Part shown: positions 1 through 11,413 of the stretch, one piece after another
Position numbering within the stretch: position 1 is the first letter of the stretch
Layout of the letters: each line of letters begins with the position of its first letter
UHGV virus genome: UHGV-0295468
Direction: 5' to 3' (one strand)
Source of the DNA: a virus
DNA length: 11,413 nucleotides
Position numbers and translations under genes: made by a program
The notes under the pieces: model-generated
Databases searched by the model: none
What the model was told of the DNA's origin: nothing
Seen by the model: the letters and a program-made list of their open reading frames with translations, nothing else

Positions 1-136
1 CACCTTATGACTGGAAGCCGATCAGGGTGGTTTGTCGTAAATGGTCGGCAAGCGTGGGGGCGTTGTGGGTAACCATAACGGCAGATTTTGAACAGGTCGT
101 GGCATAGGAGGCTCTGATGCAGGATATTCCACAGGA
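1..136. repeat. Left-terminal inverted-repeat arm: exact reverse complement of 287..422; carries an inverted copy of the M 3' end (plus-strand codons 3..107, stop 108..110) and of the first 6 codons of L (117..134)
   Basis: Base-by-base comparison: position i pairs with 423-i for i=1..136 with no mismatch; the match breaks at 137 vs 286. The arm runs to the window edge, so its true length may be larger. Confidence 0.95.
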
Positions 137-306
137 TGATACTGCCGCCCCTGCCAGGTAACCGGCTCACCTTTTTCGTTCTGCTCATTACAGAAAAAAT
201 AACGTTCACCACCGACCTCTGTCAGATCGATTTCCCAGAGCACCGCCTGGGCTGACTGAGTGAGGCGTGTCGTCTCATGATGTGTTTCCTGTGGAATATC
301 CTGCAT
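22..306 (-). CDS. L: Minor tail protein L, N-terminal fragment only. About 57 codons (306..137) are L-like; the rest of the 94-codon ORF (136..22) is out-of-frame read-through into the inverted-repeat arm
   Basis: Translation MQDIPQETHHETTRLTQSAQAVLWEIDLTEVGGERYFFCNEQNEKGEPVTWQGRQY closely matches the lambda gpL N-terminus as recalled. ATG at 306..304 lies 9 nt after the M stop, preceded by GAGG. Similarity stops exactly at the 136/137 repeat junction; lambda L is about 230 aa, so this copy is truncated. Confidence 0.8.
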   Translation of the reverse strand: MQDIPQETHHETTRLTQSAQAVLWEIDLTEVGGERYFFCNEQNEKGEPVTWQGRQYHPVEYPASEPPMPRPVQNLPLWLPTTPPRLPTIYDKPP

Positions 307-422
307 CAGAGCCTCCTATGCCACGACCTGTTCAAAATCTGCCGTTATGGTTACCCACAACGCCCCCACGCTTGCCGACCATTTACGACAAACCACCCTG
401 ATCGGCTTCCAGTCATAAGGTG
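287..422. repeat. Internal partner of the left inverted repeat; this copy is contiguous with the intact M gene and the L start codon
   Basis: Reverse complement of 1..136 (136/136). It lies within genuine coding context: L start ATG at 306..304, M stop TAG at 318..316, M C-terminal codons up to 422. Confidence 0.95.
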
Positions 423-645
423 GCGTCCACTGAAATGCGCGGACGCCACCGTGCCGTTCCAGAAAGGATTTTAAAGATGGGTGTTCACATTTACGAACAC
501 GTATCGTCACGCTGTAAGTCGACAACTGGTTATTCAGTCCCGCCGCACGACGCTGTTCATAACCATCGCCCAGCTTCACTGTCACCACTTTCGGCTCTGA
601 TACCACATTCATATCCGGGCGCACTTTCCAGTGAAACGTCTCCAT
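316..645 (-). CDS. M: Minor tail protein M (109 aa)
   Basis: Same length as lambda gpM with clear similarity along the protein (METFHWKV..., WTPPYDWKPIRV..., ...FEQVVA). ATG at 645..643 overlaps the H stop TAA (647..645) by one base; correct position between H and L. Confidence 0.9.
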   Translation of the reverse strand: METFHWKVRPDMNVVSEPKVVTVKLGDGYEQRRAAGLNNQLSTYSVTIRVRKCEHPSLKSFLERHGGVRAFQWTPPYDWKPIRVVCRKWSASVGALWVTITADFEQVVA

Positions 646-3600
646 TACCGATATGCTCCACTTAACCGACCACCATCACGGGCCTGCTGTTGCATAAAGT
701 CCGCTGCCGCTTTTTTCCCAAGGTCATAAACCACCTTCAGGGCAGCAGGACCTATCTGCCCGTTCGTGCCATCGTTATTGATCTCGATGTTGTACTGCGG
801 GGCAAACATCGCCATACCTGAACCACCAATATCCGCCACAACCCCCAGCTTACCGTCAGCACCACGACGCAGTGGCAGAATGGCTTCAGGTCCAGCTTCC
901 CCCATCACACCCGCGCCTTTTGCAAAAGCAAAAAACGTCGGACGGTTAACCACCGTGCCACTGTAGCGACTCAAATCAGCCGACTGATAAACACCGCCAT
1001 CAGCATTGGCTACAAAATCAAAAGGCAGCGCGGAAGCAATGCCTTTTACCGCTTTCATTAAAGCTATCTGAGCCATGATTCTGGACATATCTGACAGCAC
1101 AGAAGAGGTGAAGGATTTGAAATTGAGTTTGCCTGTAGTACAGAATGTCGCCAGCCAGTCACTCATGCTACTGAACGCAGACGTGAACAACTGTTCCACT
1201 GTCCCGGCTGTGTTATCCGCATTCTCAGTGACATTCTGGAGTGCACGCAGGACTCCGTTTTTCCAATTACCCTGAGCAATTTCAAGCCGTTGCCAGTAAC
1301 GGCGATTCTCATTCAGTTGTCGGTTCAGACTCTCCGTCAGCGCCTGCTCGGCCTTTCTGTAGTCATCCGTGTTATATGTCCCTTTCTGCTCACTATCCCG
1401 CCTCAACTGCTCCAGCTGTTGCTGGTATTTCTGGCGAAGACTCAGTTGTACCTGATATCGCTGCCGCTGCTGATCACCCATACCCACCGTGGCGATATCC
1501 AGGTCATGTTGCTGACGCTGAGCGCGCTCTTCTTCAGCCAGTTGACTGGTCAGCTGAATTGTTTTTTTCTTCAGATCGTTGAGTGCCGTCTGTTTCTGAA
1601 GCTCCTGCTGTTTTACATCCAGCAGCGTCAGTGCCTGAATCAGTTCATCTTTACGGGCCAGCACACTCTTTTCATCTGCCGTCAGTTTTTTCCCGTCCAG
1701 ATCGCTGATGCGCTGCTGCAGAGCCAGAAGCTGTTTATGCGCTTCTGTCATCTTTTCAGTGGCAATGCCTGCTGACTGTCTTGCAGCAGCAATCTGTCCT
1801 TCCACCTGTGCCTGTTGCTGACTGTACTGCAGCAATAACCGGGTGGCCTCATCATTACGGGTTTCGCGTGTTTTTTTCTTACCGGATGCCAGGGCTTTCT
1901 CGTAACGTTCATTTTCACGTTGTATCGCCGCATCCCTGACAGCCTGATCGGCGTACTGCATGGCATTAATACGCGCAATTTCACGCTGATGTCGTGCAGC
2001 TTCCGTTTCATTCATCCGGTTCAGTGCAGCATTTTCAGCATTACGGCGTTTCTGTTGCTCCTGATAATTCCGCTCTGCCTGCTCTTTTGCATCCTGCAAA
2101 TCCTTCTGGCGTTTTTTCTCCTGAAGATCGTTAAGACGCTGCTGATCGTATTCAACCTGAGAAGATGATGCCGTCCAGGGGAGTCTTTTCGCCCGCGACA
2201 CTTTCTCCTGCAAAGTGGCAATCTGCGCATCCAGCGAATCTTCACGACCAATATTCATGGCCGCATCCCAGAACTGCTTCCACCAGTCAGACAAAGTTTG
2301 CAGCGTACTGCCCAGCGCATTGAGGTTATTATCAATATCCGCAGTACGCCGACCGGTTTCCTCTGCCAGTGCAGACATGGCTATCCGTGCCGCATCACTG
2401 GACCGCCCCTGCTCTCCAAGGACGCGTATCTGCTCAAGCTGAGTGGCAGTAAGAAAATGCAGCTCATTGTCCAGAGACTTCGCGGCATTTACAGGATCAT
2501 CCTTCAGCCGCTTAAACTGATTTATGGTATCGCTGACCGACTGGCCAACCGATCGCTCCATCTGTGCGGCAGCTCTCGCCACCATACCGATATCGTTTCC
2601 ACGAAATGCACCACTCCCCACCACCTGAGCCAGCGCACCGGCTGCAGCATGTTGCGTGATACCATTCCCGGAAATAGCACGACTGAGCGTCCACAGCTGC
2701 CCGGCAGTGACTCCGGCATAATGCCCCGTCAGCGACAGCTGGCGGTTAAATTCTTCCCCCTCCTTCTGACCGTCATACCAGGCTTTACCCAGGCCATAGA
2801 CAGCCGCGGCAATACCGCCAATAACCCCGCCAAGCATCATGCCTTTCGGTGACATCAATGTGTCTATCCACCCGGCACGGTTAGCCAGCGTTATTCCGGA
2901 TCCCCTCAGCGCACCTAAATTTCCGCGGGCCAGTTCACCTATCAGAACGCCTATCTCCTGACGGGCCGCTGCACTTTTCAGCCCCAGCGAATGCGTGGCT
3001 TTTCCTGCCTGCTCCATTTTGCGGATATACACTTCTGCAGCACTGCTTACCCCCAGCTGGGCAGCCTTGGCACGAAGCAACTCAGAAGAAGAAAGATTCT
3101 GGCGGGTTGCCTGCTCTTTAAGCTGACGGATAAACGCCACTTTCTGTCGGGTAGCCTCTTCCTCAGCCTGTGTAAGAACACGGGTTTTCGCCGTAACCTC
3201 AGAAATCAGCGCCAGATAATCCTGCTGACCAATCCCGCCACTGTTTCTGGCCTGTCGGATCTGCTGCTGAATACGCTGTAATTCCTGCAGACCCGCACTG
3301 GCCTGTTTCACACTGTCAATCTGACGATAAAACGCAGCAGCCGCTTTATCCTGAGCCTCCGCCAGAGCCATGGCCTGCGCCTGTTCCTCGCGCATTTTCT
3401 GGCTCAGCGCCTCCATACGCTGGCGGGTTTTCTCCACCTCGCGGGCCATGCGTTCATGAGCCTGTGCGTTCTTCTCCACCGTCTGCGCATGGACGGATGC
3501 GGCTGTTGCAGCCGAAGACGCCGCCTGCGTTGTCTGCCGGGCGGCCTGAGTCTGACGCTCCATAAAACGCTGCATACGGGCAGAAGACCGTTCTGCATCG

Positions 3601-3701
3601 CTGGCTGCACCATTCAGAAGGTTTTTGATACGGGGGATTTCATTTTTAAACTCTGCCGCATCAATCCCCAAATCAATGACCAGGTTGGCTATCTGGTCCA
3701 T
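645..3701 (-). CDS. H: Tail tape measure protein (gpH-like), 1018 aa from the ATG at 3701
   Basis: N-terminus MDQIANLVIDLGIDAAEF and C-terminus INNDGTNGQIGPAALKVVYD...RDGGRLSGAYR match lambda gpH termini as recalled. Long Q/A/E/R-rich coiled-coil repeats and a Gly-rich hydrophobic segment are typical of tape measure proteins. ATG at 3701..3699 is preceded by GGAGGTG with 6-nt spacing; the ORF track starts 10 codons earlier at a TTG (3731), which I consider less likely. Confidence 0.92.
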   Translation of the reverse strand: MDQIANLVIDLGIDAAEFKNEIPRIKNLLNGAASDAERSSARMQRFMERQTQAARQTTQAASSAATAASVHAQTVEKNAQAHERMAREVEKTRQRMEALSQKMREEQAQAMALAEAQDKAAAAFYRQIDSVKQASAGLQELQRIQQQIRQARNSGGIGQQDYLALISEVTAKTRVLTQAEEEATRQKVAFIRQLKEQATRQNLSSSELLRAKAAQLGVSSAAEVYIRKMEQAGKATHSLGLKSAAARQEIGVLIGELARGNLGALRGSGITLANRAGWIDTLMSPKGMMLGGVIGGIAAAVYGLGKAWYDGQKEGEEFNRQLSLTGHYAGVTAGQLWTLSRAISGNGITQHAAAGALAQVVGSGAFRGNDIGMVARAAAQMERSVGQSVSDTINQFKRLKDDPVNAAKSLDNELHFLTATQLEQIRVLGEQGRSSDAARIAMSALAEETGRRTADIDNNLNALGSTLQTLSDWWKQFWDAAMNIGREDSLDAQIATLQEKVSRAKRLPWTASSSQVEYDQQRLNDLQEKKRQKDLQDAKEQAERNYQEQQKRRNAENAALNRMNETEAARHQREIARINAMQYADQAVRDAAIQRENERYEKALASGKKKTRETRNDEATRLLLQYSQQQAQVEGQIAAARQSAGIATEKMTEAHKQLLALQQRISDLDGKKLTADEKSVLARKDELIQALTLLDVKQQELQKQTALNDLKKKTIQLTSQLAEEERAQRQQHDLDIATVGMGDQQRQRYQVQLSLRQKYQQQLEQLRRDSEQKGTYNTDDYRKAEQALTESLNRQLNENRRYWQRLEIAQGNWKNGVLRALQNVTENADNTAGTVEQLFTSAFSSMSDWLATFCTTGKLNFKSFTSSVLSDMSRIMAQIALMKAVKGIASALPFDFVANADGGVYQSADLSRYSGTVVNRPTFFAFAKGAGVMGEAGPEAILPLRRGADGKLGVVADIGGSGMAMFAPQYNIEINNDGTNGQIGPAALKVVYDLGKKAAADFMQQQARDGGRLSGAYR

Positions 3702-4035
3702 AACGCACACCTCCGGAAATACCTTCCCCAAGATGCATCAGTTCTTCGTCCGTTCGCTCCGGTATCCCGTTCTCTTCCGGTAAAAGGCTGAAATCAGCCA
3801 CCGCAGCATCACTGCTGCCGGACACCATTCTCACGATCAATGCCTTCAGCGAGGCAAACTGCGCATCCATCCACACATCACTGAAGCTCTGCATCCGGAA
3901 ATAATCGCCCCACTCACCAAGCTCAGTGGCCGACATTTCCGACAGCATCCGCCGCCAGTCTGCCCGCCGGAACTCCCGGGCAAGCCGCATGACAAACTGC
4001 ATTTCCCGCGTCAGGACTTTTCCGGCGTCAGCGCC
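3673..4035 (-). CDS. T: Tail assembly protein T segment: the -1 frame ORF overlapping the 3' end of G, probably expressed only as a G-T fusion by programmed -1 frameshifting
   Basis: The -1 frame relative to G is open from 4035 (just after an in-frame stop at 4038..4036) to the stop at 3675..3673. It overlaps the G stop and sits between G and H exactly as lambda T does. A lysine-codon slip site lies one codon before the G stop. The internal ATG at 4002 has no obvious Shine-Dalgarno sequence. Confidence 0.65.
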   Translation of the reverse strand, partial: GADAGKVLTREMQFVMRLAREFRRADWRRMLSEMSATELGEWGDYFRMQSFSDVWMDAQFASLKALIVRMVSGSSDAAVADFSLLPEENGIPERTDEELMHLGEGISGGVRYGPDSQPGH

Positions 4036-4397
4036 TCATGCTCATCATCCCCGGCATTATCAATGGCCCCCATACCGCTCAGCGACAGAACCATCTCCGC
4101 CCCCGCACCCAGGGCATCATACGACCATGTTGTAATAACGGATGCGCAAAGCGTCTCTACATCCTTAGACTGATCCGCATTCCACAGTGAGCGGGAAACC
4201 AGCCAGGCATTGATATCCATCCCCATCCGCAGAAAAGCAATCTGTCGTTCAGCCTCCGGCAGTTCTCCCTCACCGGCATCAAACTTTGCCGTTCGCTGCT
4301 GAACAAACGCCAGATATTCAATTCTCTGCAACCCGGACAGCTCACTGAGCACCACGGACTGTTTTTCATAATTAAACGTGCCCTGTTTCAGAAACAT
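4011..4397 (-). CDS. G: Tail assembly chaperone G (128 aa from the ATG at 4397)
   Basis: Translation MFLKQGTFNYEKQSVVLSELSGLQRIEYLAF... resembles lambda gpG (MFLK..., TLSELSALQRIEHLA...). GGTGGAG Shine-Dalgarno 6 nt upstream of the ATG at 4397..4395. The ORF-track start at 4439 is a TTG inside the upstream hairpin and is unlikely. Confidence 0.85.
   Translation of the reverse strand: MFLKQGTFNYEKQSVVLSELSGLQRIEYLAFVQQRTAKFDAGEGELPEAERQIAFLRMGMDINAWLVSRSLWNADQSKDVETLCASVITTWSYDALGAGAEMVLSLSGMGAIDNAGDDEHEALTPEKS
4017..4023 (-). other. Candidate -1 ribosomal frameshift site GGAAAAG (minus strand) linking G to T
   Basis: G-frame codons read CCG GAA AAG TCC TGA. An AAG-to-AAA lysine tRNA slip at 4019..4017 would enter the T frame. 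The only window where both frames are open is 4035..4014. The motif differs from lambda's GGGAAAG as recalled. Confidence 0.5.
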
Positions 4398-4413
4398 CAT
4401 GTTCTCCACCTGC

Positions 4414-4437
4414 AAAAAAGCCCCGGATAACCGGGGC
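4414..4437 (-). terminator. Intrinsic-terminator-like hairpin between V and G: 7-bp GC stem (GCCCCGG/CCGGGGC), 4-nt loop, followed on the coding strand by TTTTTT
   Basis: Plus strand 4420..4437 is gccccgg-ataa-ccggggc, preceded by A6 at 4414..4419; on the minus (coding) strand this is a stem-loop followed by a U6 tract, 20 nt after the V stop and immediately before the G ribosome-binding site. Confidence 0.55.
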
Positions 4438-4457
4438 AAATGATGAGTATCGTCCTG

Positions 4458-5201
4458 TTAACCTGCGGCGCTGACAGTCACCGCAGCCACAGCCACAAAA
4501 TTCCCGTCAGCGGTCATGCCCACAATGCTGACACTGCCCTGCTTCACGCCTTTCACCGTGGCCACAAGCCCGTTCAGGGTCACCGTGGCAGTCTGTGGAT
4601 CTGACGAATGCACACTGATCGCTTTGTCACTGGCTCCGTCAGGTTTTACTGTAAAGGTCAGCGTGGTGGTTGCTCCCACTTTTACACTGGCAGATGCCGG
4701 TGCCACCGTCAGCCCGGTAACGCTCACTGTTTCAGTGCCTTCCTCTGCCAGATACGGACGCCCCACACCGCTGATTTTCACAGTGCGGGTCATCACGTCT
4801 TTTGAGGCAATGGTTTTACCCAGTGAACTCAGCCAGCCACGGAAAACATCAACAGTACCGTTGGGATATTTGATACGAAACGCGCAGACTTCACCGGAGT
4901 CGAACAACTGAACCAGTTTTTTCTGCCCGCTGTCACCCGGACGCCAGGCCAGCGTCGCCGAAGTATCACCGACTGATTTCTGCCCCTGGGTTGTCGTTTT
5001 CCAGTCTGCATCTTCATCATCGAGATAAGTATCATCTTCTGCATCAGCGGTCATTTCGCCAGGTTGCAGATCCTTCACCATCGCAAGACGCAGCCAGTCA
5101 GTGTCCGACAAAGGGTTCGCAAATGCGTCGCCGTTGCCGGTATACATCCAGAACGTCGTCCCCGCACCTTTCGTCTTTGCCAGTGGATTTGGTGTGGTCA
5201 T
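4458..5201 (-). CDS. V: Major tail protein V with C-terminal Ig-like domain (247 aa from the ATG at 5201)
   Basis: Strong similarity to lambda gpV as recalled (KGAGTTFWMYTGNGDAFANPLSD..., DTYLDDEDADW..., YPNGTVDVFRGWLSS...). Perfect AAGGAGG Shine-Dalgarno 5 nt upstream of the ATG at 5201..5199. The C-terminal ~90 aa are Thr/Val/Ser-rich and Ig-like. The ORF-track start (GTG at 5276) would overlap U. Confidence 0.92.
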   Translation of the reverse strand: MTTPNPLAKTKGAGTTFWMYTGNGDAFANPLSDTDWLRLAMVKDLQPGEMTADAEDDTYLDDEDADWKTTTQGQKSVGDTSATLAWRPGDSGQKKLVQLFDSGEVCAFRIKYPNGTVDVFRGWLSSLGKTIASKDVMTRTVKISGVGRPYLAEEGTETVSVTGLTVAPASASVKVGATTTLTFTVKPDGASDKAISVHSSDPQTATVTLNGLVATVKGVKQGSVSIVGMTADGNFVAVAAVTVSAAG

Positions 5202-5211
5202 TGCCACCTCC

Positions 5212-5613
5212 TTAATTCGTGTACGTGATCTGGTACGTGATTTCCGCCATCGCCCAGGTGGCCATCTCATTATCACGTTGATAGTTAAAACCGAGTGGGA
5301 TCAGGGTGTCGATGAGTCCGGAAAGTGCCGGTACATCATTCAGGGCCGGGAAAATGGTGCTCTCCATCCACATATCCAGCTCTGAATCCGGTGCCTGTGC
5401 CCGGATGAAGACAGCAATATGCAGAACAGCCTGCCAGTCATCTTCATCCGTCATTTTTCCGGTGTACTGAGCATCACTCAGCCACACCGCCACGGCAGGC
5501 AGTTCCTGCGCATCAACAAATGCCGGAAGCCCGTCAAAAAACGTGGCGCTGTCTCCACACTGTTCCCGAAGGCGTGCCAGTACGACCTGGCGGATTTGTG
5601 TATGTCGGTTCAT
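5212..5613 (-). CDS. U: Tail terminator protein U (133 aa from the ATG at 5613; an alternative ATG at 5625 gives 137 aa)
   Basis: Similarity to lambda gpU (ATFFDG..., PAVAV..., YTG, DSELD.WMES, ITY.ITY). The ATG at 5613..5611 overlaps the Z stop TGA (5612..5610) in an ATGA arrangement, suggesting translational coupling. Confidence 0.88.
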   Translation of the reverse strand: MNRHTQIRQVVLARLREQCGDSATFFDGLPAFVDAQELPAVAVWLSDAQYTGKMTDEDDWQAVLHIAVFIRAQAPDSELDMWMESTIFPALNDVPALSGLIDTLIPLGFNYQRDNEMATWAMAEITYQITYTN

Positions 5614-6188
5614 CGGGTCAGCCATAACCTCAGTTGTTGTTTCAGTGCATACCCCAGCTGTTTCGGCATTTCCGCAGCAATGATGCGGTCGCGGGCATCT
5701 TCAAATGCCTGTGTCAGCGGTCCGGACAGCGGGATTTTCACCACATCAATGGGGTAACGATTTTTGCCATCAATACGCCGCATCACATGCCAGCGACCAT
5801 TCGCCAGTTGCTGAATAAACGCATCCCGGAAAAGATATTTACCCACCTTCAGCACACTGCCACGGTACTGCAGTTTTCCACCACGCCGGGCCAGTCTGAC
5901 CCGGGCTGTCCCCAGCTTAATGGCGGGAAGATTGCCCCGGTTAACGCGGATCCTGGCCGTCATTTTTCCTGACGGACTGGCTTTAAACACCCGGACACGC
6001 TGACGTACCAGTTTCAGGGGGATCCCTTTCACCTGGTTATCTCCCGCAACGGTATTCCCGGCAACCTGCCGGGTGGCAACCGAGACCGCTTTCTGTGCCA
6101 CACGGTTTATCGCCCATGCGCTGGCCTGTGGCACCATACGGGTATCAAGGCTGTTCAGATTGCGGATGGCATTCTCAAGCCCCTTCAT
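5610..6188 (-). CDS. Z: Minor tail protein Z (192 aa)
   Basis: Same length as lambda gpZ with near-collinear similarity (MKGLE..., PQASAW.INRVA, QRVRVFKA, IRVNRG.LPAIKLG, NGRWHVM.R..GKNRYPIDVVKIP, LGYAL). GAGGTG Shine-Dalgarno 5 nt upstream of the ATG at 6188..6186. Confidence 0.92.
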   Translation of the reverse strand: MKGLENAIRNLNSLDTRMVPQASAWAINRVAQKAVSVATRQVAGNTVAGDNQVKGIPLKLVRQRVRVFKASPSGKMTARIRVNRGNLPAIKLGTARVRLARRGGKLQYRGSVLKVGKYLFRDAFIQQLANGRWHVMRRIDGKNRYPIDVVKIPLSGPLTQAFEDARDRIIAAEMPKQLGYALKQQLRLWLTR

Positions 6189-6199
6189 CCCACACCTCT

Positions 6200-6775
6200 T
6201 TACTCAATAAAGATCATTGGCTTACCGTTAAAGCGTTCATGCCGTGTGACCGTCCATTGTTGTCCGTCATAAACAACGCGATCCCCGCGCCGTGGGCGGT
6301 ATCCCGAAGAAAACACCACCAGAGAGACTCTGATCCCTTTTCCCGGTTGGCAGCGCGTATGGATGCGATCACGGTCAGAAAGATGGGAAAGACAGCCTCG
6401 ATTAATGATGTCGATATGGCTGTGATCCCGGGAGAAACACTGGCAGAGCTGAATGCTCTGTCCGGACCTCGGCACTTCTTCTGCACTGGTTCCGGCATCT
6501 GCCCAGACAACCCCGACCAGCGGCTCAGAGCCGCTGTTAGTCAGCTGAACTTTTCCTGACTTCAGATAAACCTTCTTACCCGTTTTCATGTCATCCGTTT
6601 TCAGCTTAGGCAGCATAAACACACCTTCGGTTATGCCGTCGCCTGTTTCTCCCTGTGGAATATCGGTCAGCGCCACCGCAAAAACATCCCCCACCTGCAC
6701 CAGATCTCCGCTGCTGATGGCTGCACTGGCAACAATCGCCACCGTTTTTCCTTCTTCTACAAAATTCTTTGCCAT
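6200..6775 (-). CDS. Continuous 191-codon ORF: N-terminal ~115 aa resemble a gpD-like head decoration protein; C-terminal ~45 aa resemble head-tail joining protein gpFII; no stop codon between them
   Basis: ATG at 6775..6773 with GGAGA Shine-Dalgarno 5 nt upstream. N-terminal part (KTVAIVASAAISSGD..., YLKSGKVQL, VVWADAGTSAEE) resembles lambda gpD (AAVGILAVAAD, FYKSGTFRY, VLWPEAASDE). The C-terminus (GKGIRVSLVVF...RRGDRVVYDGQQWTV) resembles the lambda gpFII C-terminal region (GQGVRV...SLFV...RRGDTLTIGEENFWV). Whether this is one fused protein or two genes merged by a frameshift is unresolved. Confidence 0.55.
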   Translation of the reverse strand: MAKNFVEEGKTVAIVASAAISSGDLVQVGDVFAVALTDIPQGETGDGITEGVFMLPKLKTDDMKTGKKVYLKSGKVQLTNSGSEPLVGVVWADAGTSAEEVPRSGQSIQLCQCFSRDHSHIDIINRGCLSHLSDRDRIHTRCQPGKGIRVSLVVFSSGYRPRRGDRVVYDGQQWTVTRHERFNGKPMIFIE

Positions 6776-6818
6776 AACTGTCTCCGCACAGCCCCGTTCA
6801 GGGGCTGATTTCAGGTAC

Positions 6819-6838
6819 AAAAAAAGCCCTTACGGGCC
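6819..6838 (-). terminator. Weak terminator-like hairpin after the capsid ORF: 4-5 bp GC stem with GTAA loop followed by T7 on the coding strand
   Basis: Minus strand reads ggcccgtaagggc followed by ttttttt (plus-strand A7 at 6819..6825), 24 nt downstream of the capsid stop. The stem is short, so this is tentative. A second 5-bp GC hairpin (plus 6791..6805) sits just upstream of the next ribosome-binding site. Confidence 0.35.
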
Positions 6839-6861
6839 ATCAGAGTTGTTGTCTGCGACGT

Positions 6862-8820
6862 TTACGCCGTACATTTCACCAGGCCGCGGTGATCAACTGG
6901 CGCAACACCAGCGTCAATACGCACTTTCGTTGTCACGCCATCCACACTGAAGCCCTCCATCTGATCAATATATGGCGTATCCACACCGTTGAGATAAGCC
7001 ACTTCAATCGTATCGGAGCCTTTGGACGCAGCCAGGTAGAAGGTGGTCTGGCTGTTATCATCAAGACGAGGCTCTGCAATAACGGTCGCAAAATCTTTCA
7101 CCGGGTTAATAATACCGGCGTTAATGTCAGCCCCCTTGACACTTGAGGAGCGAATGACCTGGTTAGCAACAGACTCCATCGCCGTCGGTACCAGTACGAA
7201 CGCAGGACGAATATTCAGATGACGCTCACCCTCTTTCTGAACGCGCATCAACTGGCGGGCTTTATCCAGCGATGCCACGTCCATTGCCGCGCTCTCCAGT
7301 ACGTTTGCATGTTTCGCTTTATCGAACAGACTTACATTATCTGTGGAGATTTTCGGGTTAGACGTCAGAATGGCATAAACCAGATCGGCAATAGTGGATT
7401 TCGCCGCACGGCCCAGCTTCATCGGGACATCGGTCAGCATATTCAGATCATCATTGATAATGGCCTGACGGGTGATACTGAACAGCTCGCCATAGGTCGC
7501 CAGTGCAATAGTGGCCTGTTTATCTCCGGTGGTGACGTATTTATATTCTGCCCCTTCACGCACCTGACGCAGAGCACTGAAGCCCCCCATACCCACACGA
7601 TGGGCAATTTTAAAATCAGACAACTGACCTTTCCGCGTCCACTGTTCATAGGTTTCAGGGGCATCTTCCCAGCCCTGCAGAATGGCTTTGTTCGCAACAT
7701 CCAGCAGAATATTACCGAAGTCAGACGTACTGTGTGTGAACGCCGCACCGACCATCTGCATCGGGTTATAACTGGAAACACCAATACCACGTTCAGTCAG
7801 TGACATACGGGCATATTCACGCAGGGTCATCCCGTTGTAGACATTATCACGTTCAGTTTTTTCAAACCCGGCGCGCGCCATCAGCGCCTGGCGGATCCCG
7901 TCCCCCACAAAATTACCGTTACCGGCATAAATATGAGCCGGGGTATTTTTATTGGATGGCGTGGACTCGCGCCCCATCTCGTTCAACAGCTTTTCGCGGG
8001 CCTGCTCCAGCGAACATTCAGGATCGGCAAGACACTGAGCCTGCAACGACTGATAACGCCCGCCAAACATGGCAAACAGATCATTAATACCGTTTACACG
8101 CGCTTTTTGCTCTGCCAGGACCTGCGCACGGATGCTGTTTTCATCCACCACGGGTGCTGCTGCCTGCACTGGCGTCCGGGAGGCTGCAGGTCCATCATCC
8201 TGTACGCGTGGAGCACTGTTGCGTGGCGGAGTAATCATATTTCGAATGGATTCCGGCATCTTTTTAAATTCCTCTGTACGTTTTGACTGAATACATGCCA
8301 TTGCCTTAACGGCTGGTGTCACCTGATCAGCAAATCCCTGTGCCAGACATTCGGCACCGGACATCCAGGTCTCATCCGCCAGCATGGCAGCAATTTCATC
8401 GGTGGTTTTCCCGGTTTTCTGTGCATAAGCGGGTAACAGAACCGCCTCAACTTTATCGAGCAGGTCGGCATAGGTGCGCATGTCCTCCGCATCACCGCCC
8501 GTAAAGCCAAATGGTTTATGAATCATCATGAAGGAGTTTTCCGGCATAATGACCGGGTTTCCCACCATCGCAATGACCGACGCCATTGACGCCGCCACAC
8601 CGTCGACATAAACGGTAATGGACGCACCATGTGTTTTCAGTGCATTAAAAATGGCGATGCCTTCAAAGACATCGCCACCCGGTGAATTAATATGGAGATT
8701 AATGTGGGTGATATCGCCCAGTGCATTCAGATCACTGATAAACTGCTTCGCCGTAACACCCCAGAAACCAATCTCGTCATAAATATAAATATCCGCGTCA
8801 CTCTGGTGACCTGCCTGCAT
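6862..8820 (-). CDS. Prohead protease (ClpP/S14-like), scaffold-like linker and HK97-fold major capsid region in one 652-aa ORF
   Basis: N-terminal ~200 aa have ClpP-like features (IYIYDEIG..., INSPGGDVFEGIAIFNALK, VDGVAASMASVIAM, MIHKP). The middle is a charged Ala/Gln-rich region. The C-terminal ~330 aa look like an HK97-type capsid protein (no lambda gpE similarity). ATG at 8820..8818 lies 13 nt after the portal stop. The ORF-track extension to 9081 starts at a TTG and overlaps the portal by ~250 nt. Confidence 0.78.
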   Translation of the reverse strand: MQAGHQSDADIYIYDEIGFWGVTAKQFISDLNALGDITHINLHINSPGGDVFEGIAIFNALKTHGASITVYVDGVAASMASVIAMVGNPVIMPENSFMMIHKPFGFTGGDAEDMRTYADLLDKVEAVLLPAYAQKTGKTTDEIAAMLADETWMSGAECLAQGFADQVTPAVKAMACIQSKRTEEFKKMPESIRNMITPPRNSAPRVQDDGPAASRTPVQAAAPVVDENSIRAQVLAEQKARVNGINDLFAMFGGRYQSLQAQCLADPECSLEQAREKLLNEMGRESTPSNKNTPAHIYAGNGNFVGDGIRQALMARAGFEKTERDNVYNGMTLREYARMSLTERGIGVSSYNPMQMVGAAFTHSTSDFGNILLDVANKAILQGWEDAPETYEQWTRKGQLSDFKIAHRVGMGGFSALRQVREGAEYKYVTTGDKQATIALATYGELFSITRQAIINDDLNMLTDVPMKLGRAAKSTIADLVYAILTSNPKISTDNVSLFDKAKHANVLESAAMDVASLDKARQLMRVQKEGERHLNIRPAFVLVPTAMESVANQVIRSSSVKGADINAGIINPVKDFATVIAEPRLDDNSQTTFYLAASKGSDTIEVAYLNGVDTPYIDQMEGFSVDGVTTKVRIDAGVAPVDHRGLVKCTA

Positions 8821-8833
8821 CCTGAACCAGGAA

Positions 8834-10342
8834 TTATTCTTCGGACTGGTCGTCGGTGTGCTGCGGCTCCTGTCGTTTCGTTGCGGCACTGCTGCCTCCT
8901 TTATCACTGGCCGGATCGGTATCAAATACCAGATCCAGCTTGCGGTTTTCATCAATTTCGGCCTTGCGCCGACGTTTGACATCATCTGGATTACGACCAC
9001 CTGCACGTACCCAGTCTGATTCTGTCGCCGCTCCACCACGAATCTGAATTTTCCAGGCCTCAGCCTCCTTAACAGGGTCAATCCACGGCATCACCGGTCC
9101 GGAATACACCGCGGTATACAGTGAAGAACGATCAAGATCGCGGGGTAGCCTGATAACACCGGATGCCACAGCCTGTTTCAGCCAGGCACGATACATCGGG
9201 CGGGTGACGGCACCAATAAACCAGTCCTGCAGGATCAGGTAGCCATCAGTGGATTCAACCAGCTCCTGACGCTGGGCGCTGTAAGTGCCGTTATAGTTGC
9301 GCGCTGTACTGGAAAAACTCAGACGACTGCCCGCCGCCACGGCACGCAACTGACCATTACGAAAAGTTTCAAGATTAGGATTGGGGCGATCCGACTTCAC
9401 CATTCCGATTTCTTCGCCGGGTTTCAGATCGTCGTAAATAATGCCTGGCTGAATGGTAAGCTCGCGTTCCTTATCCTTGCTGCCATTACCATCCGGTTCA
9501 TAGCTCTGCCCGTCGCCTTTCCGGATGTACATCCCCAGAGCAGCGGCGATCCTTGCTGCAGTCAGCTCAGAATCTTCATACTCTTTCAGGGCACTGAGGC
9601 GGATCAGCACACCGGACAACAAAGACGTCCCGCGCATCTGGTGCAGACGGCGAACAAATTTAAGATGCAGCATTCGCTCTGCATCCACTTCTTTGGTTTC
9701 CATCTGCCGTCCGGATACGGGACGGCTTTTATACACCAGATATTTTTCGGGACGCCCCCAGTCATCAACAAACACGCCCTGATTCAGCCTGTTGCTCTCA
9801 TCACTGGTCATGGGAATAAAGTCCGGCTCGAGCGCCTCCAGCCAGAAATGAACACCGGCAGAAGGCGTCAGGCTGTTTATGCGCCCGGAAACCATCTGGG
9901 CAAACACCTCACCATCGCGCAGCCAGGTACGCAACATCAGACGTTCCAGCATCGGACGGGTAAACTGCCCGGTGACTTCCGGACTGACAGACCATTCACT
10001 CCATCGGGTGCGTATCTCCGCTGCCAGATCACGGGCAATGGCCCCATTGCGTAATACCGGATGTGGCTCGACAATAATCCCGTTTTTCCCCACCACCCGT
10101 TCTTCCAGCTTGTCAAATACACCAATGACCAGATCGTGGTTGTTATCAAGGTAACGGGCCTGCTCACGTAACGACACGGCCCCGTACTGGCTTAACTGGT
10201 CGGCAGTTCGGTTTTCCCGCCGGGCTTTGTGTGTCCGCGTCGTTTTTACGGCCTCATAAGCCTGGATCACCGCACGGGAACGCAGCCTTGCCGCTTTCCA
10301 TCCTGGTGAAAAAACGCCAATCACATCATCAAGAATTGCCAT
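8834..10342 (-). CDS. Portal protein (502 aa from the ATG at 10342)
   Basis: Size and position (between W/terminase and the protease-capsid gene) are typical of a portal; acidic C-terminal tail. The ATG at 10342..10340 overlaps the W stop TGA (10344..10342) in an ATGA arrangement. Assignment rests on synteny and general appearance, not on a recalled alignment. Confidence 0.8.
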   Translation of the reverse strand: MAILDDVIGVFSPGWKAARLRSRAVIQAYEAVKTTRTHKARRENRTADQLSQYGAVSLREQARYLDNNHDLVIGVFDKLEERVVGKNGIIVEPHPVLRNGAIARDLAAEIRTRWSEWSVSPEVTGQFTRPMLERLMLRTWLRDGEVFAQMVSGRINSLTPSAGVHFWLEALEPDFIPMTSDESNRLNQGVFVDDWGRPEKYLVYKSRPVSGRQMETKEVDAERMLHLKFVRRLHQMRGTSLLSGVLIRLSALKEYEDSELTAARIAAALGMYIRKGDGQSYEPDGNGSKDKERELTIQPGIIYDDLKPGEEIGMVKSDRPNPNLETFRNGQLRAVAAGSRLSFSSTARNYNGTYSAQRQELVESTDGYLILQDWFIGAVTRPMYRAWLKQAVASGVIRLPRDLDRSSLYTAVYSGPVMPWIDPVKEAEAWKIQIRGGAATESDWVRAGGRNPDDVKRRRKAEIDENRKLDLVFDTDPASDKGGSSAATKRQEPQHTDDQSEE

Positions 10343-10554
10343 CAGAACCTCGCAAGCCGGTACCCGGGATGCCCCCGTCGTCGTGTAATCAGAGCCGCAA
10401 GGCGGCGCTCCCACTCCTGCCGTCCCTGCCGGATCTCAGATAAGTTTTCCATGGTCATCTGCTGACCATTAAAGGTGACGGATTTTCCGTCCAGCACCGC
10501 CATTTCAGCTTCCGTATAACGCTGAATCATGGCTTCGATATCATTCTGGTTCAT
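10342..10554 (-). CDS. W: Head-tail joining protein, gpW-like (70 aa from the ATG at 10554)
   Basis: Small protein directly after the terminase gene with a C-terminal RRRGHPGY motif resembling lambda gpW (RRRGPAGF). The ATG at 10554..10552 overlaps the terminase stop TGA (10553..10551); GGAGG lies 6 nt upstream. The track ATG at 10560 has no spacer after the Shine-Dalgarno sequence. Confidence 0.7.
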   Translation of the reverse strand: MNQNDIEAMIQRYTEAEMAVLDGKSVTFNGQQMTMENLSEIRQGRQEWERRLAALITRRRGHPGYRLARF

Positions 10555-11330
10555 AACCATCCTCCGGAAGTCAGCCAGGGGTTAACATCGTCAGTTACTG
10601 TTTTCTTCCGTTTTTGTTTTTTAACAGGCGTGGATACCGGTTCCGGTGTGGGTGACGGTTCGGTACTGTCCGGGACACACTCCAGCCAGGTTTCCCGGCT
10701 CGCCCACTCCGGTGCATCCGGCCAGCGGATCTTTTCGTATCCATGCAGAATGACCAGAGCCTCGGCATACACCATCAGGTCAAAAGCTTCGTTGGCACCG
10801 CGACCCGGCTTACTCCATTTCCCGTCACTGCTCCGCTCTTCATACGTCAGTTCGTCGTAAAACCAGCTCCCCAGCCAGTCAGGGAAATGCACATAGCCGG
10901 GACCTGGCGAGTCACGCCATAACGCGTTATTCACCCGGTCTTTCAGGGCATCCGTCTGAAGAAGCCAGAGCGGTACATCACCTGCGGCCTGCGCCCGTCG
11001 GCCCGTTCGTCCGGTGTTATCAGGGAATGTACGGGTGATCAGTTTTGCGCGCCGGATGCTGTCGCCCTTAAACAGGTAAATACGTTTACCAAGGCCATCA
11101 CGACGGCAACGACGCCAGAATTTATAGGCATTATCAGTGACCCCGTCTTCACCGCCGGAGTCCACCGCCATTGCCATCAGTCGCATTTGTTGAGAAGGAT
11201 CGGAGGCCAGCGGCCAGCTTTTATGAAAAACATCCGTCAGCAGGACATCCCAGTCTTCCGGATAGCTGGCCGGATCAATTCGCTGGCTCTCCCCGATGGC
11301 GGTGGACTCCGGCGGTGAAGACGGGGTCAC
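10551..11330 (-). CDS. A: Terminase large subunit, C-terminal fragment only (about 248 codons, 11294..10551); the codons above 11295 are read-through into the right inverted-repeat arm and the N-terminal ATPase part is absent
   Basis: Position immediately upstream of W and portal with ATGA coupling to W; globular, Trp/Asp-rich sequence typical of a terminase nuclease domain. The ORF-track start is a GTG inside the inverted-repeat arm. Assignment is by synteny and general appearance; not verified by search. Confidence 0.7.
   Translation of the reverse strand: MTPSSPPESTAIGESQRIDPASYPEDWDVLLTDVFHKSWPLASDPSQQMRLMAMAVDSGGEDGVTDNAYKFWRRCRRDGLGKRIYLFKGDSIRRAKLITRTFPDNTGRTGRRAQAAGDVPLWLLQTDALKDRVNNALWRDSPGPGYVHFPDWLGSWFYDELTYEERSSDGKWSKPGRGANEAFDLMVYAEALVILHGYEKIRWPDAPEWASRETWLECVPDSTEPSPTPEPVSTPVKKQKRKKTVTDDVNPWLTSGGWL
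11054..11171. repeat. Internal partner of the right inverted repeat, inside the terminase coding sequence
   Basis: Exact reverse complement of 11296..11413 (118/118); position i pairs with 22467-i; the match breaks at 11172 vs 11295. Confidence 0.95.
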
Positions 11331-11413
11331 TGATAATGCCTATAAATTCTGGCGTCGTTGCCGTCGTGATGGCCTTGGTAAACGTATTTACCTGTTTAAG
11401 GGCGACAGCATCC
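11296..11413. repeat. Right-terminal inverted-repeat arm: exact reverse complement of 11054..11171, running to the window edge
   Basis: Base-by-base comparison with no mismatch over 118 bp, separated from its partner by a 124-bp unique spacer (11172..11295). The arm reaches the last base of the window, so the true length is unknown. Confidence 0.95.

What the first reader, a model, noticed from the sequence alone, without database searches (positions are those of the whole stretch)
6862..8820. Protease, scaffold-like linker and major capsid in one 652-aa ORF
The ORF begins with a ClpP-like serine protease domain, continues through a charged linker and ends in an HK97-fold capsid-like region with no stop codon anywhere. 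In lambda, the protease/scaffold (C/Nu3) and capsid (E) are separate genes. A single polypeptide implies the protease and scaffold are delivered in cis and removed by self-cleavage during maturation. This arrangement is known from some lambdoid prophages, so it is unusual relative to lambda rather than new.
Basis: partly seen in the sequence, partly recalled or inferred. Interest (0 to 1): 0.45.

Follow-up and report, generated by a model that had tools for sequence, protein, structure and literature searches.

The report
Fused protease–scaffold–capsid phage head gene

Summary
The ORF is real. It lies on the minus strand and has no internal stop. It carries an N-terminal ClpP-type serine protease domain, a composite middle region and a C-terminal HK97-fold capsid domain.

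Two corrections:
- The likely start is a GTG at 8889, behind a perfect AAGGAGG ribosome-binding site. That gives 675 aa, not 652 aa from the ATG at 8820.
- The "linker" is not notably charged. It consists of conserved helices, a variable Pro/Ala/Thr-rich spacer and a helical scaffold-like domain.

The protein scores 984 bits (cutoff 475) against NCBIfam NF045540, [quoted passage not shown]. Its DNA is 100% identical to phage mEp460_ev081 and is found in 2125 of 5426 complete E. coli genomes. The protein is 70% identical to the Gifsy-2 "tripartite capsid gene" product (Effantin et al. 2010). More than 100 diverged cluster representatives keep the same architecture and the Ser-His-Glu/Asp triad, so this is not a sequencing artefact.

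The most likely mechanism is that protease and scaffold are delivered in cis and removed by self-cleavage, followed by expansion and binding of a cement protein. Novelty: already known; interest is low.

Side note: the window itself carries an internal 144-nt inversion and fold-back ends that look like assembly artefacts. They lie outside this ORF.

The parts
6862..8889 (-). Whole gene: ClpP-like prohead protease / scaffold-like region / major capsid protein fusion. 675 aa from GTG 8889; stop TAA at 6862-6864.
   Evidence: ORF. NCBIfam NF045540 984 bits against cutoff 475. PHROG 133 full length. RefSeq CDS with the same start.
8887..8901 (-). Probable translation start: SD AAGGAGG (8901-8895), 5-nt spacer, GTG (8889-8887). 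It lies inside the 3' end of the portal gene in another frame (56-nt overlap).
   Evidence: Conserved in mEp043 and an Stx2a phage.
8818..8820 (-). It has no SD and is not conserved.
   Evidence: Ile in Solano. (I 55, L 22, M 16 of 132).
8821..8889 (-). N-terminal extension (residues 1-23), basic, ending in the conserved S-W-F/Y motif.
   Evidence: S20 and W21 invariant in alignment A1. Composition.
8317..8820 (-). ClpP-type (MEROPS S14-like) serine protease domain, residues 24-191. Catalytic codons: Ser101 (8587-8589), His124 (8518-8520), Glu173 (8371-8373).
   Evidence: Pfam CLP_protease E 4.6e-36 and 3.5e-37. NF045542 217 bits. Alignment to solved ClpP puts Ser, His and the acidic residue in register. 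Conservation S 130/132, H 131/132, E 111 + D 14 of 132.
8233..8316 (-). Conserved post-protease segment (residues 192-219), predicted helical, with conserved F208 and P212 and the locally invariant Met211.
8143..8232 (-). Variable Pro/Ala/Thr/Ser/Gln-rich spacer (residues 220-249). Its length varies between homologues and it is predicted disordered.
   Evidence: Indels in alignment A1. pLDDT <50. 60% P+A+T+S+Q.
7966..8142 (-). Three-helix scaffold-like (delta-domain-like) module, residues 250-308. This is where homology with the S78-protease fusion family begins.
   Evidence: AF2 helices at model residues 6-29, 36-44 and 50-63, pLDDT >95. BLASTP homology to RcMeacham starts at residue 251. NF045541 match from residue 220.
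7912..7965 (-). Low-confidence loop (residues 309-326), a candidate region for maturation cleavage.
   Evidence: Lowest pLDDT block in the model (61). The cleavage role is inference only.
7765..7911 (-). Helical region preceding the capsid core (residues 327-375). It could be an N-arm or further scaffold; the sequence alone does not decide the boundary.
   Evidence: AF2 helices at model residues 83-96 and 112-122. The Pfam capsid model starts only at residue about 377.
6865..7764 (-). HK97-fold major capsid protein core (residues 376-675, 32.5 kDa).
6818..6838 (-). Intrinsic-terminator-like hairpin plus T7 tract, 24 nt after the stop codon.
   Evidence: Sequence. Annotated as a rho-independent terminator in mEp460 and mEp043.
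8834..10342 (-). Upstream neighbour: lambda-family portal protein (502 aa). Its last 56 nt overlap the fusion gene.
   Evidence: Pfam Phage_portal_2 E 5.7e-82. Annotation.
6470..6775 (-). Downstream neighbour: cement/decoration protein gene (Phage_cement_2, formerly DUF2190). In this window its last codons are lost in a 144-nt inversion.
   Evidence: Pfam Phage_cement_2 E 2.8e-20 on the intact mEp460_ev081 copy. 62% identical to the Gifsy-2 protein. Inversion.

Best explanation
This is the head-shell gene of an mEp460/cdtI/Gifsy-2-type lambdoid (pro)phage of E. coli. One polypeptide of 675 aa (73 kDa) carries four parts in order:
- a ClpP-type serine protease;
- a flexible Pro/Ala/Thr-rich spacer;
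- a helical scaffold-like module;
- an HK97-fold major capsid domain.

Proposed mechanism:
1. The capsid domains co-assemble with the portal into a procapsid, with the N-terminal regions pointing inward. Each shell subunit therefore brings its own scaffold and protease. (Inferred.)
2. The high local concentration inside the closed shell activates the Ser101-His124-Glu173 protease. It cuts off and degrades the N-terminal ~310-375 residues, leaving a mature capsid protein of about 32-40 kDa. (Inferred. The triad and the domain boundaries are shown; the cleavage site is not.)
3. DNA packaging expands the shell, and trimers of the downstream cement protein stabilise it. (By homology with Gifsy-2.)

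Shown here: the ORF, the domains, catalytic-residue conservation, the HK97 fold, gene context, and membership of the named family.
For: - ORF and start.
- Family: NF045540 984 bits against cutoff 475; PHROG 133 end-to-end.
- Identity: 100% DNA identity to phage mEp460_ev081 and 98-99% to mEp460, cdtI and Ayreon.
- Prevalence: present in 2125 of 5426 complete E. coli genomes and annotated 'ClpP-like prohead protease/major capsid protein fusion protein'.
- Protease: Pfam CLP_protease. Alignment to solved ClpP places the Ser in GxAASM, the His in MIHxP and an acidic residue in register. The triad is conserved in 130, 131 and 125 of 132 diverged fusion proteins.
- Architecture is ancient. Most of the top 150 cluster representatives (50% identity clustering) match residues ~20-672 in one stretch at 35-54% identity. 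It is also common in Pseudomonas.
- Experimental anchor: 70% identity over 669 aa to Gifsy-2 STM1034.3n. [quoted passage not shown] 2010, cited in PMC12315714). Its capsid carries a trimeric decoration protein at the 3-fold axes (PMC8538268).
- Context: portal upstream, cement protein and head-closure gene downstream.
Against: - No direct evidence here for cleavage, its position or its timing.
- The full-length AF2 model was poor (pLDDT 45.7), so the relative arrangement of protease and capsid domains is unknown.
- Crowding (my rough estimate, not computed by a tool): if all ~415 subunits of a T=7 shell carried ~41 kDa of internal cargo, about 17 MDa would have to fit inside the procapsid.
- An in-frame Met211 with a weak SD could give a protease-less product. 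Exclusive cis-delivery is therefore not proven.
- The Gifsy-2 paper itself could not be read in the library.
Confidence: 0.88

Rival explanations
1. Nested-gene model, as in lambda C/Nu3. Besides the full-length chain, internal initiation at Met211 (ATG 8259-8257) would yield a protease-less scaffold-capsid protein, HK97 gp5-like with a delta domain. That product would build most of the shell, and only a minority of subunits would carry the protease.
For: - The in-frame ATG at codon 211 has an AGGA 10 nt upstream.
- Met211-Pro212 is invariant in 31 E. coli, Salmonella and Pseudomonas homologues.
- It lies just after the protease domain and shortly before the module shared with the S78-protease fusion family.
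- It would relieve the crowding of ~415 protease domains per procapsid (my estimate).
Against: - Across 131 more diverged fusion proteins the position is Ala, Val, Pro, Ile or Thr, whereas the neighbouring Pro212 is conserved in 124 of 132. The conserved feature is therefore a peptide motif, not a start codon.
- The SD is weak and distant compared with the perfect SD at the GTG start.
- No annotation pipeline calls an internal gene.
Confidence: 0.08
2. Artefactual fusion. A sequencing or assembly error (a lost stop or a frameshift) merged a separate protease/scaffold gene and a capsid gene in this window.
For: - The window does contain assembly-like anomalies: a 144-nt inversion at 6329-6472 and perfect fold-back repeats at both ends.
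- Singleton database proteins fuse portal and this gene through random frameshifts.
Against: - The ORF lies wholly inside a block (6470-11295) that is 99.98% identical to E. coli S88.
- 1988 complete genomes carry at least 80% of it, and 336 records match at 99% or more. It is annotated as one CDS.
- Cultured phages mEp460, cdtI, mEp043, Solano and Gifsy-2 have the same single gene.
- More than 100 representatives at 35-54% identity keep the full architecture.
Confidence: 0.01
3. The ClpP-like domain is a catalytically dead structural or scaffolding domain, and maturation cleavage (if any) is done by a host protease.
For: - The third triad position is Glu rather than the Asp of cellular ClpP.
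- No biochemical data are available for this clade. The head proteins of the related mEp213 are stated as 'not studied' in PMC12315714.
Against: - Ser101 and His124 are conserved in 130 and 131 of 132 diverged homologues, and the acidic residue in 125 of 132.
- The flanking ClpP motifs GxAASM and MIHxP are intact.
- NF045542, 'head maturation protease, ClpP-related', scores 217 bits against a cutoff of 120.
- No other protease gene lies in the head module.
Confidence: 0.03

Closest known systems
Salmonella phage Gifsy-2 'tripartite capsid gene' (STM1034.3n; Effantin et al. 2010, Virology 402:355)
   Same: 70% amino-acid identity over 669 residues, with the same protease / middle / capsid order. 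The neighbours match: lambda-type portal upstream with an overlapping start, then a 107-aa cement protein (62% identical) and a head-closure gene downstream. It is described in the literature as a fused prohead protease and coat protein with trimeric decoration at the 3-fold axes.
   Different: Different host and phage, and 21 fewer residues, mostly in the variable spacer and the N-terminus. No experimental data exist for the E. coli version.
NCBIfam NF045540 (scaf_prot_MCP1), 'ClpP-like prohead protease/major capsid protein fusion protein'; PHROG 133
   Same: End-to-end match at about twice the curated cutoff (984 against 475 bits). PHROG 133 covers residues 1-652. RefSeq uses exactly this name for the identical E. 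coli gene.
   Different: Nothing of note; this is a typical member.
NCBIfam NF045541 (scaf_prot_MCP2), e.g. Rhodobacter phage RcMeacham 'major capsid and protease fusion protein'
   Same: Homologous scaffold-like and capsid module: 31% identity, residues 251-672 against 247-676. Same Pfam Phage_capsid_4 domain, and the same position after the portal gene.
   Different: The N-terminal protease is unrelated: Peptidase_S78 (HK97 gp4 type) instead of ClpP type. The window protein scores below the NF045541 cutoff (399 against 525). The same scaffold-capsid unit has therefore been joined to two different protease folds.
Phage HK97 gp4 (protease) + gp5 (delta domain + capsid)
   Same: HK97-fold capsid domain. 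An N-terminal helical scaffold-like region is fused to the capsid protein and presumably removed by a phage protease (established knowledge for HK97; inference here).
   Different: In HK97 the protease is a separate gene of the S78 family and the shell is stabilised by covalent crosslinks. Here the protease is ClpP type and fused, and a cement protein gene follows.
Phage lambda C / Nu3 / E / D
   Same: Lambdoid gene order, a lambda-family portal, a protease physically linked to scaffold, and a separate trimeric decoration/cement protein (established knowledge for lambda).
   Different: Lambda keeps the capsid protein E as a separate gene. Its protease C is S49 (SppA-like), and Nu3 is a nested internal-start product. 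Here the only SppA-type hit is far below cutoff (21.8 against 155 bits), and the capsid domain is in the same chain.
Actinobacteriophage 'major capsid and protease fusion protein' (clusters AU, EE, AN, AW)
   Same: The same idea of a single protease-capsid gene, routinely annotated.
   Different: Unrelated hosts. Sequence relationship to this protein was not tested.

Membership tests
NF045540 ClpP-like prohead protease/major capsid protein fusion (Gifsy-2 type) | Full-length profile match above the curated cutoff | tested here: met
   984 bits against cutoff 475; residues 9-651 on profile positions 2-651 of 652.
NF045540 ClpP-like prohead protease/major capsid protein fusion (Gifsy-2 type) | N-terminal ClpP-fold serine protease domain with the catalytic Ser, His and acidic residue | tested here: met
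   Pfam CLP_protease E 4.6e-36. Alignment to ClpP structures. Ser101, His124 and Glu173 conserved in 130, 131 and 125 of 132 relatives.
NF045540 ClpP-like prohead protease/major capsid protein fusion (Gifsy-2 type) | C-terminal HK97-fold major capsid domain in the same uninterrupted reading frame | tested here: met
NF045540 ClpP-like prohead protease/major capsid protein fusion (Gifsy-2 type) | Position in a head module: after the portal gene and before the cement/decoration and head-completion genes | tested here: met
   Portal at 8834-10342. Cement protein gene starts at 6775. Same order in mEp460, S88 and Gifsy-2.
NF045540 ClpP-like prohead protease/major capsid protein fusion (Gifsy-2 type) | Autoproteolytic removal of protease and scaffold, leaving a ~30-kDa-class shell protein in a decorated T=7 capsid | not testable with these tools
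   Needs virion proteomics or cryo-EM. Reported for Gifsy-2 only through secondary citations.
NF045541 S78-protease/major capsid fusion (scaf_prot_MCP2) | Full-length match above cutoff, with an HK97 gp4-type (Peptidase_S78) N-terminal domain | tested here: not met
   399 bits against cutoff 525, matching only residues 197-649. No Peptidase_S78 hit. No N-terminal homology to RcMeacham.
Lambda gpC / S49 (SppA-like) prohead protease with nested Nu3 scaffold | S49-family protease domain and a conserved internal in-frame start for the scaffold | tested here: not met
   SppA_dom 21.8 bits against cutoff 155. The internal Met211 is not conserved in the wider family.
Cellular ClpP (ATP-dependent Clp protease proteolytic subunit) | Equivalog-level score | tested here: not met
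   TIGR00493 60 bits against cutoff 308.6. This is a ClpP-related fold, not a ClpP orthologue. Partnership with a Clp ATPase was not tested.

The most novel reading that the evidence does not exclude
Stoichiometry may be tuned. Not every shell subunit would enter the procapsid as the full 73-kDa chain. An internal start at the locally invariant Met211, or cleavage before assembly at the conserved F208-x3-P212 motif, would supply protease-less scaffold-capsid subunits. The phage would then set its protease:capsid ratio from a single gene, as a fused-gene counterpart of lambda C/Nu3. A related point is already implicit in the two NCBIfam families: the scaffold-capsid unit is a mobile module that has captured two unrelated protease folds (ClpP type here, S78 type in the Rhodobacter group).
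Probability: 0.1. Interest if true: 0.35.

Novelty: already known. Interest (0 to 1): 0.12.

Why it matters
It matters little as a discovery. The architecture has a curated NCBI family and a PHROG, a cryo-EM study in Gifsy-2, and routine annotation in thousands of genomes.

It does have some practical use. Annotations of the same gene are inconsistent across records: 'head maturation protease', 'Major head protein', 'Nu3', 'protease C', 'Clp protease ClpP'. The start codon is also called inconsistently, as 652 or 675 aa.

The biology still open is how about 415 cis-delivered proteases are accommodated and activated, and where the maturation cut falls. For the E. coli clade this has not been studied experimentally, although the gene is present in about 39% of complete E. 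coli genomes.

Tried and rejected
1. Plus-strand reading of 6862-8820 gives many stops. The gene is on the minus strand.
2. Full-length AF2 with a shallow 31-sequence alignment gave pLDDT 45.7 and was unusable for the capsid part. It was replaced by a 146-sequence alignment of residues 245-675, which gave pLDDT 93.4.
3. Internal start at Met211: considered, then downgraded because the Met is not conserved across 131 diverged relatives.
4. Programmed portal-to-capsid frameshift, suggested by the 1159-aa portal+protease+capsid database proteins: rejected. Each is a singleton with the frame switch at a different position.
5. The Gifsy-2 paper (PMID 20427067) is not held in the library. Citing papers give only one-line descriptions.
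6. Literature searches for virion proteomics of this clade found nothing relevant.
7. A PDB sequence search with the capsid part gave only weak Mu-GpT-like hits (E 2e-4), so fold comparison was needed.
8. An exact search for the inversion junction in genome contigs found nothing. This is uninformative, because that collection holds one genome per species.
9. A search for a lambda-type GGGAAAG slippery site for the tail G/T chaperones found no hit in the right place. This was not pursued.
Full report
**Observation**

The coordinates 6862-8820 hold an uninterrupted reading frame, but on the minus strand. The plus-strand translation is full of stops. The minus-strand ORF runs from 9081 to a TAA at 6862-6864.

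That ATG has no Shine-Dalgarno sequence. Sixty-nine bases upstream, a GTG (8889-8887) sits 5 nt after a perfect AAGGAGG. Several lines favour this upstream start:
- The SD-GTG pair is conserved in phage mEp043 and in an Stx2a phage.
- Residues S20 and W21, upstream of the ATG, are invariant in a 31-sequence alignment.
- Met24 is Ile or Leu in most of 131 diverged relatives.
- RefSeq annotates the 675-aa form.

I therefore take 6862-8889 (675 aa, 73.4 kDa) as the gene. Its first 56 nt overlap the end of the portal gene in another frame.

**What the protein contains**

Protease domain:
- Pfam finds CLP_protease at residues 23-168 and Phage_capsid_4 at 354-649 in 652-aa numbering.
- Sequence search of the PDB returns only ClpP proteolytic subunits for the N-terminal part (best E 8e-16). 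The catalytic Ser (GVAASMAS) and His (MMIHKP) are aligned, and Glu173 aligns with the ClpP Asp.
- In 675-aa numbering the triad is Ser101, His124 and Glu173.
- Among 132 aligned fusion proteins at 35-54% identity, these positions are Ser in 130, His in 131, and Glu or Asp in 125. The protease is therefore under selection as an enzyme.

Capsid domain:
- A full-length AF2 run with a shallow alignment failed (pLDDT 45.7).
- Residues 245-675 with a 146-sequence alignment gave pLDDT 93.4 and pTM 0.80.
- Foldseek against the PDB returns phage capsids (phiXacJX1, NF5, Adjutor, D3, HK97 Head II) and encapsulins at probability 1.0.
- The nearest solved relative by sequence is the Mu-GpT-like capsid of JBD30 (23% identity).

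Middle region: it is not a simple charged linker (24% charged residues against 22% overall). It has five parts:
- a conserved helical stretch, residues 192-219, with conserved F208 and P212;
- a Pro/Ala/Thr-rich spacer, residues 220-249, that varies in length and is predicted disordered;
- a confidently predicted three-helix module, residues 250-308;
- a low-confidence loop, residues 309-326;
- further helices up to the capsid core, which starts at about residue 376.

**Is it an artefact?**

No.
- The DNA is 100% identical to phage mEp460_ev081 and 98-99% identical to mEp460, cdtI, Ayreon, phi458 and others.
- It occurs in 2125 of 5426 complete E. coli genomes, with 1988 carrying at least 80% of it. 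There it is annotated as a single CDS named [quoted passage not shown].
- An exhaustive HMMER search of 1.84 billion cluster representatives shows that most of the top 150 match residues ~20-672 in one stretch, at lengths of 640-750 aa.
- The architecture is also common in Pseudomonas prophages.

**Family and closest known**

- The protein scores 984 bits against NCBIfam NF045540 (cutoff 475) and matches PHROG 133 end to end.
- It is 70% identical over 669 residues to Gifsy-2 STM1034.3n. That product is described in the literature as a fusion of prohead protease and coat protein (Effantin et al. 2010, cited in PMC12315714), in a capsid with a trimeric decoration protein at the 3-fold axes (PMC8538268). 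The primary paper is not in the library. From my memory of its abstract, it reports a ClpP-like N-terminus, a ~200-residue central domain of possible scaffolding role, a C-terminal capsid protein, and T=7 lambdoid capsids modelled with HK97 gp5 and lambda gpD.
- Gene order matches Gifsy-2, mEp460 and the S88 prophage: terminase, small adaptor, lambda-family portal, this gene, a terminator, a 107-aa Phage_cement_2 protein, a head-closure gene, then tail genes.

**A useful evolutionary detail**

The sister family NF045541 (for example Rhodobacter phage RcMeacham) shares only residues 251-672 with this protein (31% identity, E 3e-52). It carries an unrelated Peptidase_S78 (HK97 gp4-type) protease at its N-terminus.

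The helical module plus capsid domain is therefore the conserved unit, analogous to HK97 gp5 with its delta domain. It has been joined to two different protease folds. This supports calling residues 250-~375 scaffold-like. It is already implicit in the two NCBIfam entries.

**Mechanism**

Shown here:
- one chain with an intact protease active site;
- a flexible spacer;
- a helical module evolutionarily tied to the capsid domain;
- an HK97 fold;
- a cement protein gene next door.

Inferred from HK97, lambda and Gifsy-2 biology:
1. The capsid domains assemble on the portal with the N-terminal parts inside.
2. Confinement activates the protease, which removes and degrades the N-terminal ~310-375 residues.
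3. The shell expands on packaging and is cemented.

The cleavage site is unknown. Candidates are the low-confidence loop at residues 309-326, which would leave a ~38-40-kDa product, and the boundary near residue 376, which would leave 32.5 kDa.

One open point rests on my rough estimate from general knowledge of T=7 procapsid dimensions. About 415 copies of ~41 kDa is roughly 17 MDa, which would fill more than half of a T=7 procapsid interior. That makes an alternative source of protease-less subunits worth considering.

An in-frame ATG at Met211 has a weak SD and is invariant in close and mid-range homologues. It is replaced by Ala, Val, Pro, Ile or Thr in the wider family. I give this nested-gene reading about 8-10%.

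**Other rivals**

- A dead protease domain is unlikely, given the conservation of the triad.
- A programmed portal-capsid frameshift was suggested by the 1159-aa database proteins. I reject it because each is a singleton with the frame switch at a different position.

**Verdict**

It is an ordinary member of a curated family and is already known. Interest is 0.12.

**Noticed outside the finding**

Compared with S88 and mEp460_ev081, the window has three anomalies:
- A 144-nt segment at 6329-6472 is inverted, with 13 and 3 nt lost at the junctions. This fuses the cement gene and the head-closure gene into a spurious 206-aa ORF.
- None of 5426 complete E. coli genomes has this arrangement.
- Both window ends are perfect fold-backs of nearby sequence: 1-136 against 287-422, and 11296-11413 against 11054-11171.

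These look like assembly artefacts. The fusion gene lies entirely in a clean block (6470-11295) that is 99.98% identical to S88.

Noticed in passing
window 6329-6472 (affects ORF 6200-6820, minus strand): A 144-nt segment is inverted relative to E. coli S88 and phage mEp460_ev081, with 13 nt and 3 nt lost at the two junctions. It removes the last codons of the cement (Phage_cement_2/DUF2190) gene and the first half of the head-closure gene, creating a spurious 206-aa ORF. None of 5426 complete E. coli genomes shows this arrangement. It is either an assembly artefact or a rearrangement that inactivates the prophage.
   Followed up: partly
window 1-136 vs 287-422, and 11296-11413 vs 11054-11171: Both ends of the window are 100% complementary fold-back copies of nearby internal sequence (136 and 118 nt, with loops of 150 and 124 nt). 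The right-hand one truncates the large-terminase reading frame at 11330. This is typical of contig-end assembly artefacts.
   Followed up: partly
window 8834-9081 (portal / fusion-gene overlap): The fusion-gene frame is open for 64 codons upstream of its GTG start, inside the portal gene. Public databases hold many singleton ~1159-aa 'portal+ClpP+capsid' proteins whose frame switch falls at a different position in each. These are probably single-base sequencing errors rather than programmed frameshifting.
   Followed up: yes
window 7966-8142 onward (residues 251-675); L006 1763-3802: The scaffold-like helices plus capsid domain are homologous (31% identity) to Rhodobacter phage RcMeacham's fusion protein, whose N-terminal protease is of the unrelated Peptidase_S78 (HK97 gp4) type. 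The same scaffold-capsid module is thus joined to two different protease folds.
   Followed up: yes
window 6818-6838, minus strand: An intrinsic-terminator-like hairpin (GGCCC-GTAA-GGGCT) with a T7 tract lies 24 nt after the capsid gene stop. It is annotated as a rho-independent terminator in mEp460 and mEp043. It presumably lowers expression of the genes after the highly expressed shell gene.
   Followed up: partly
public records of the same gene (table): Annotation of essentially identical genes is inconsistent: 'Major head protein', 'head maturation protease', 'putative protease/scaffold protein', 'head-tail preconnector protease C', 'Nu3', 'Clp protease ClpP'. Start-codon calls also vary between 652 aa and 675 aa.
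   Followed up: no
window 137-6328 (tail genes): The tail half of the window is only 97.1% identical to S88 and mEp460_ev081, with 11 gaps. The head half (6470-11295) is 99.98% identical to S88. This suggests a mosaic junction between the head and tail modules near the inversion.
   Followed up: no
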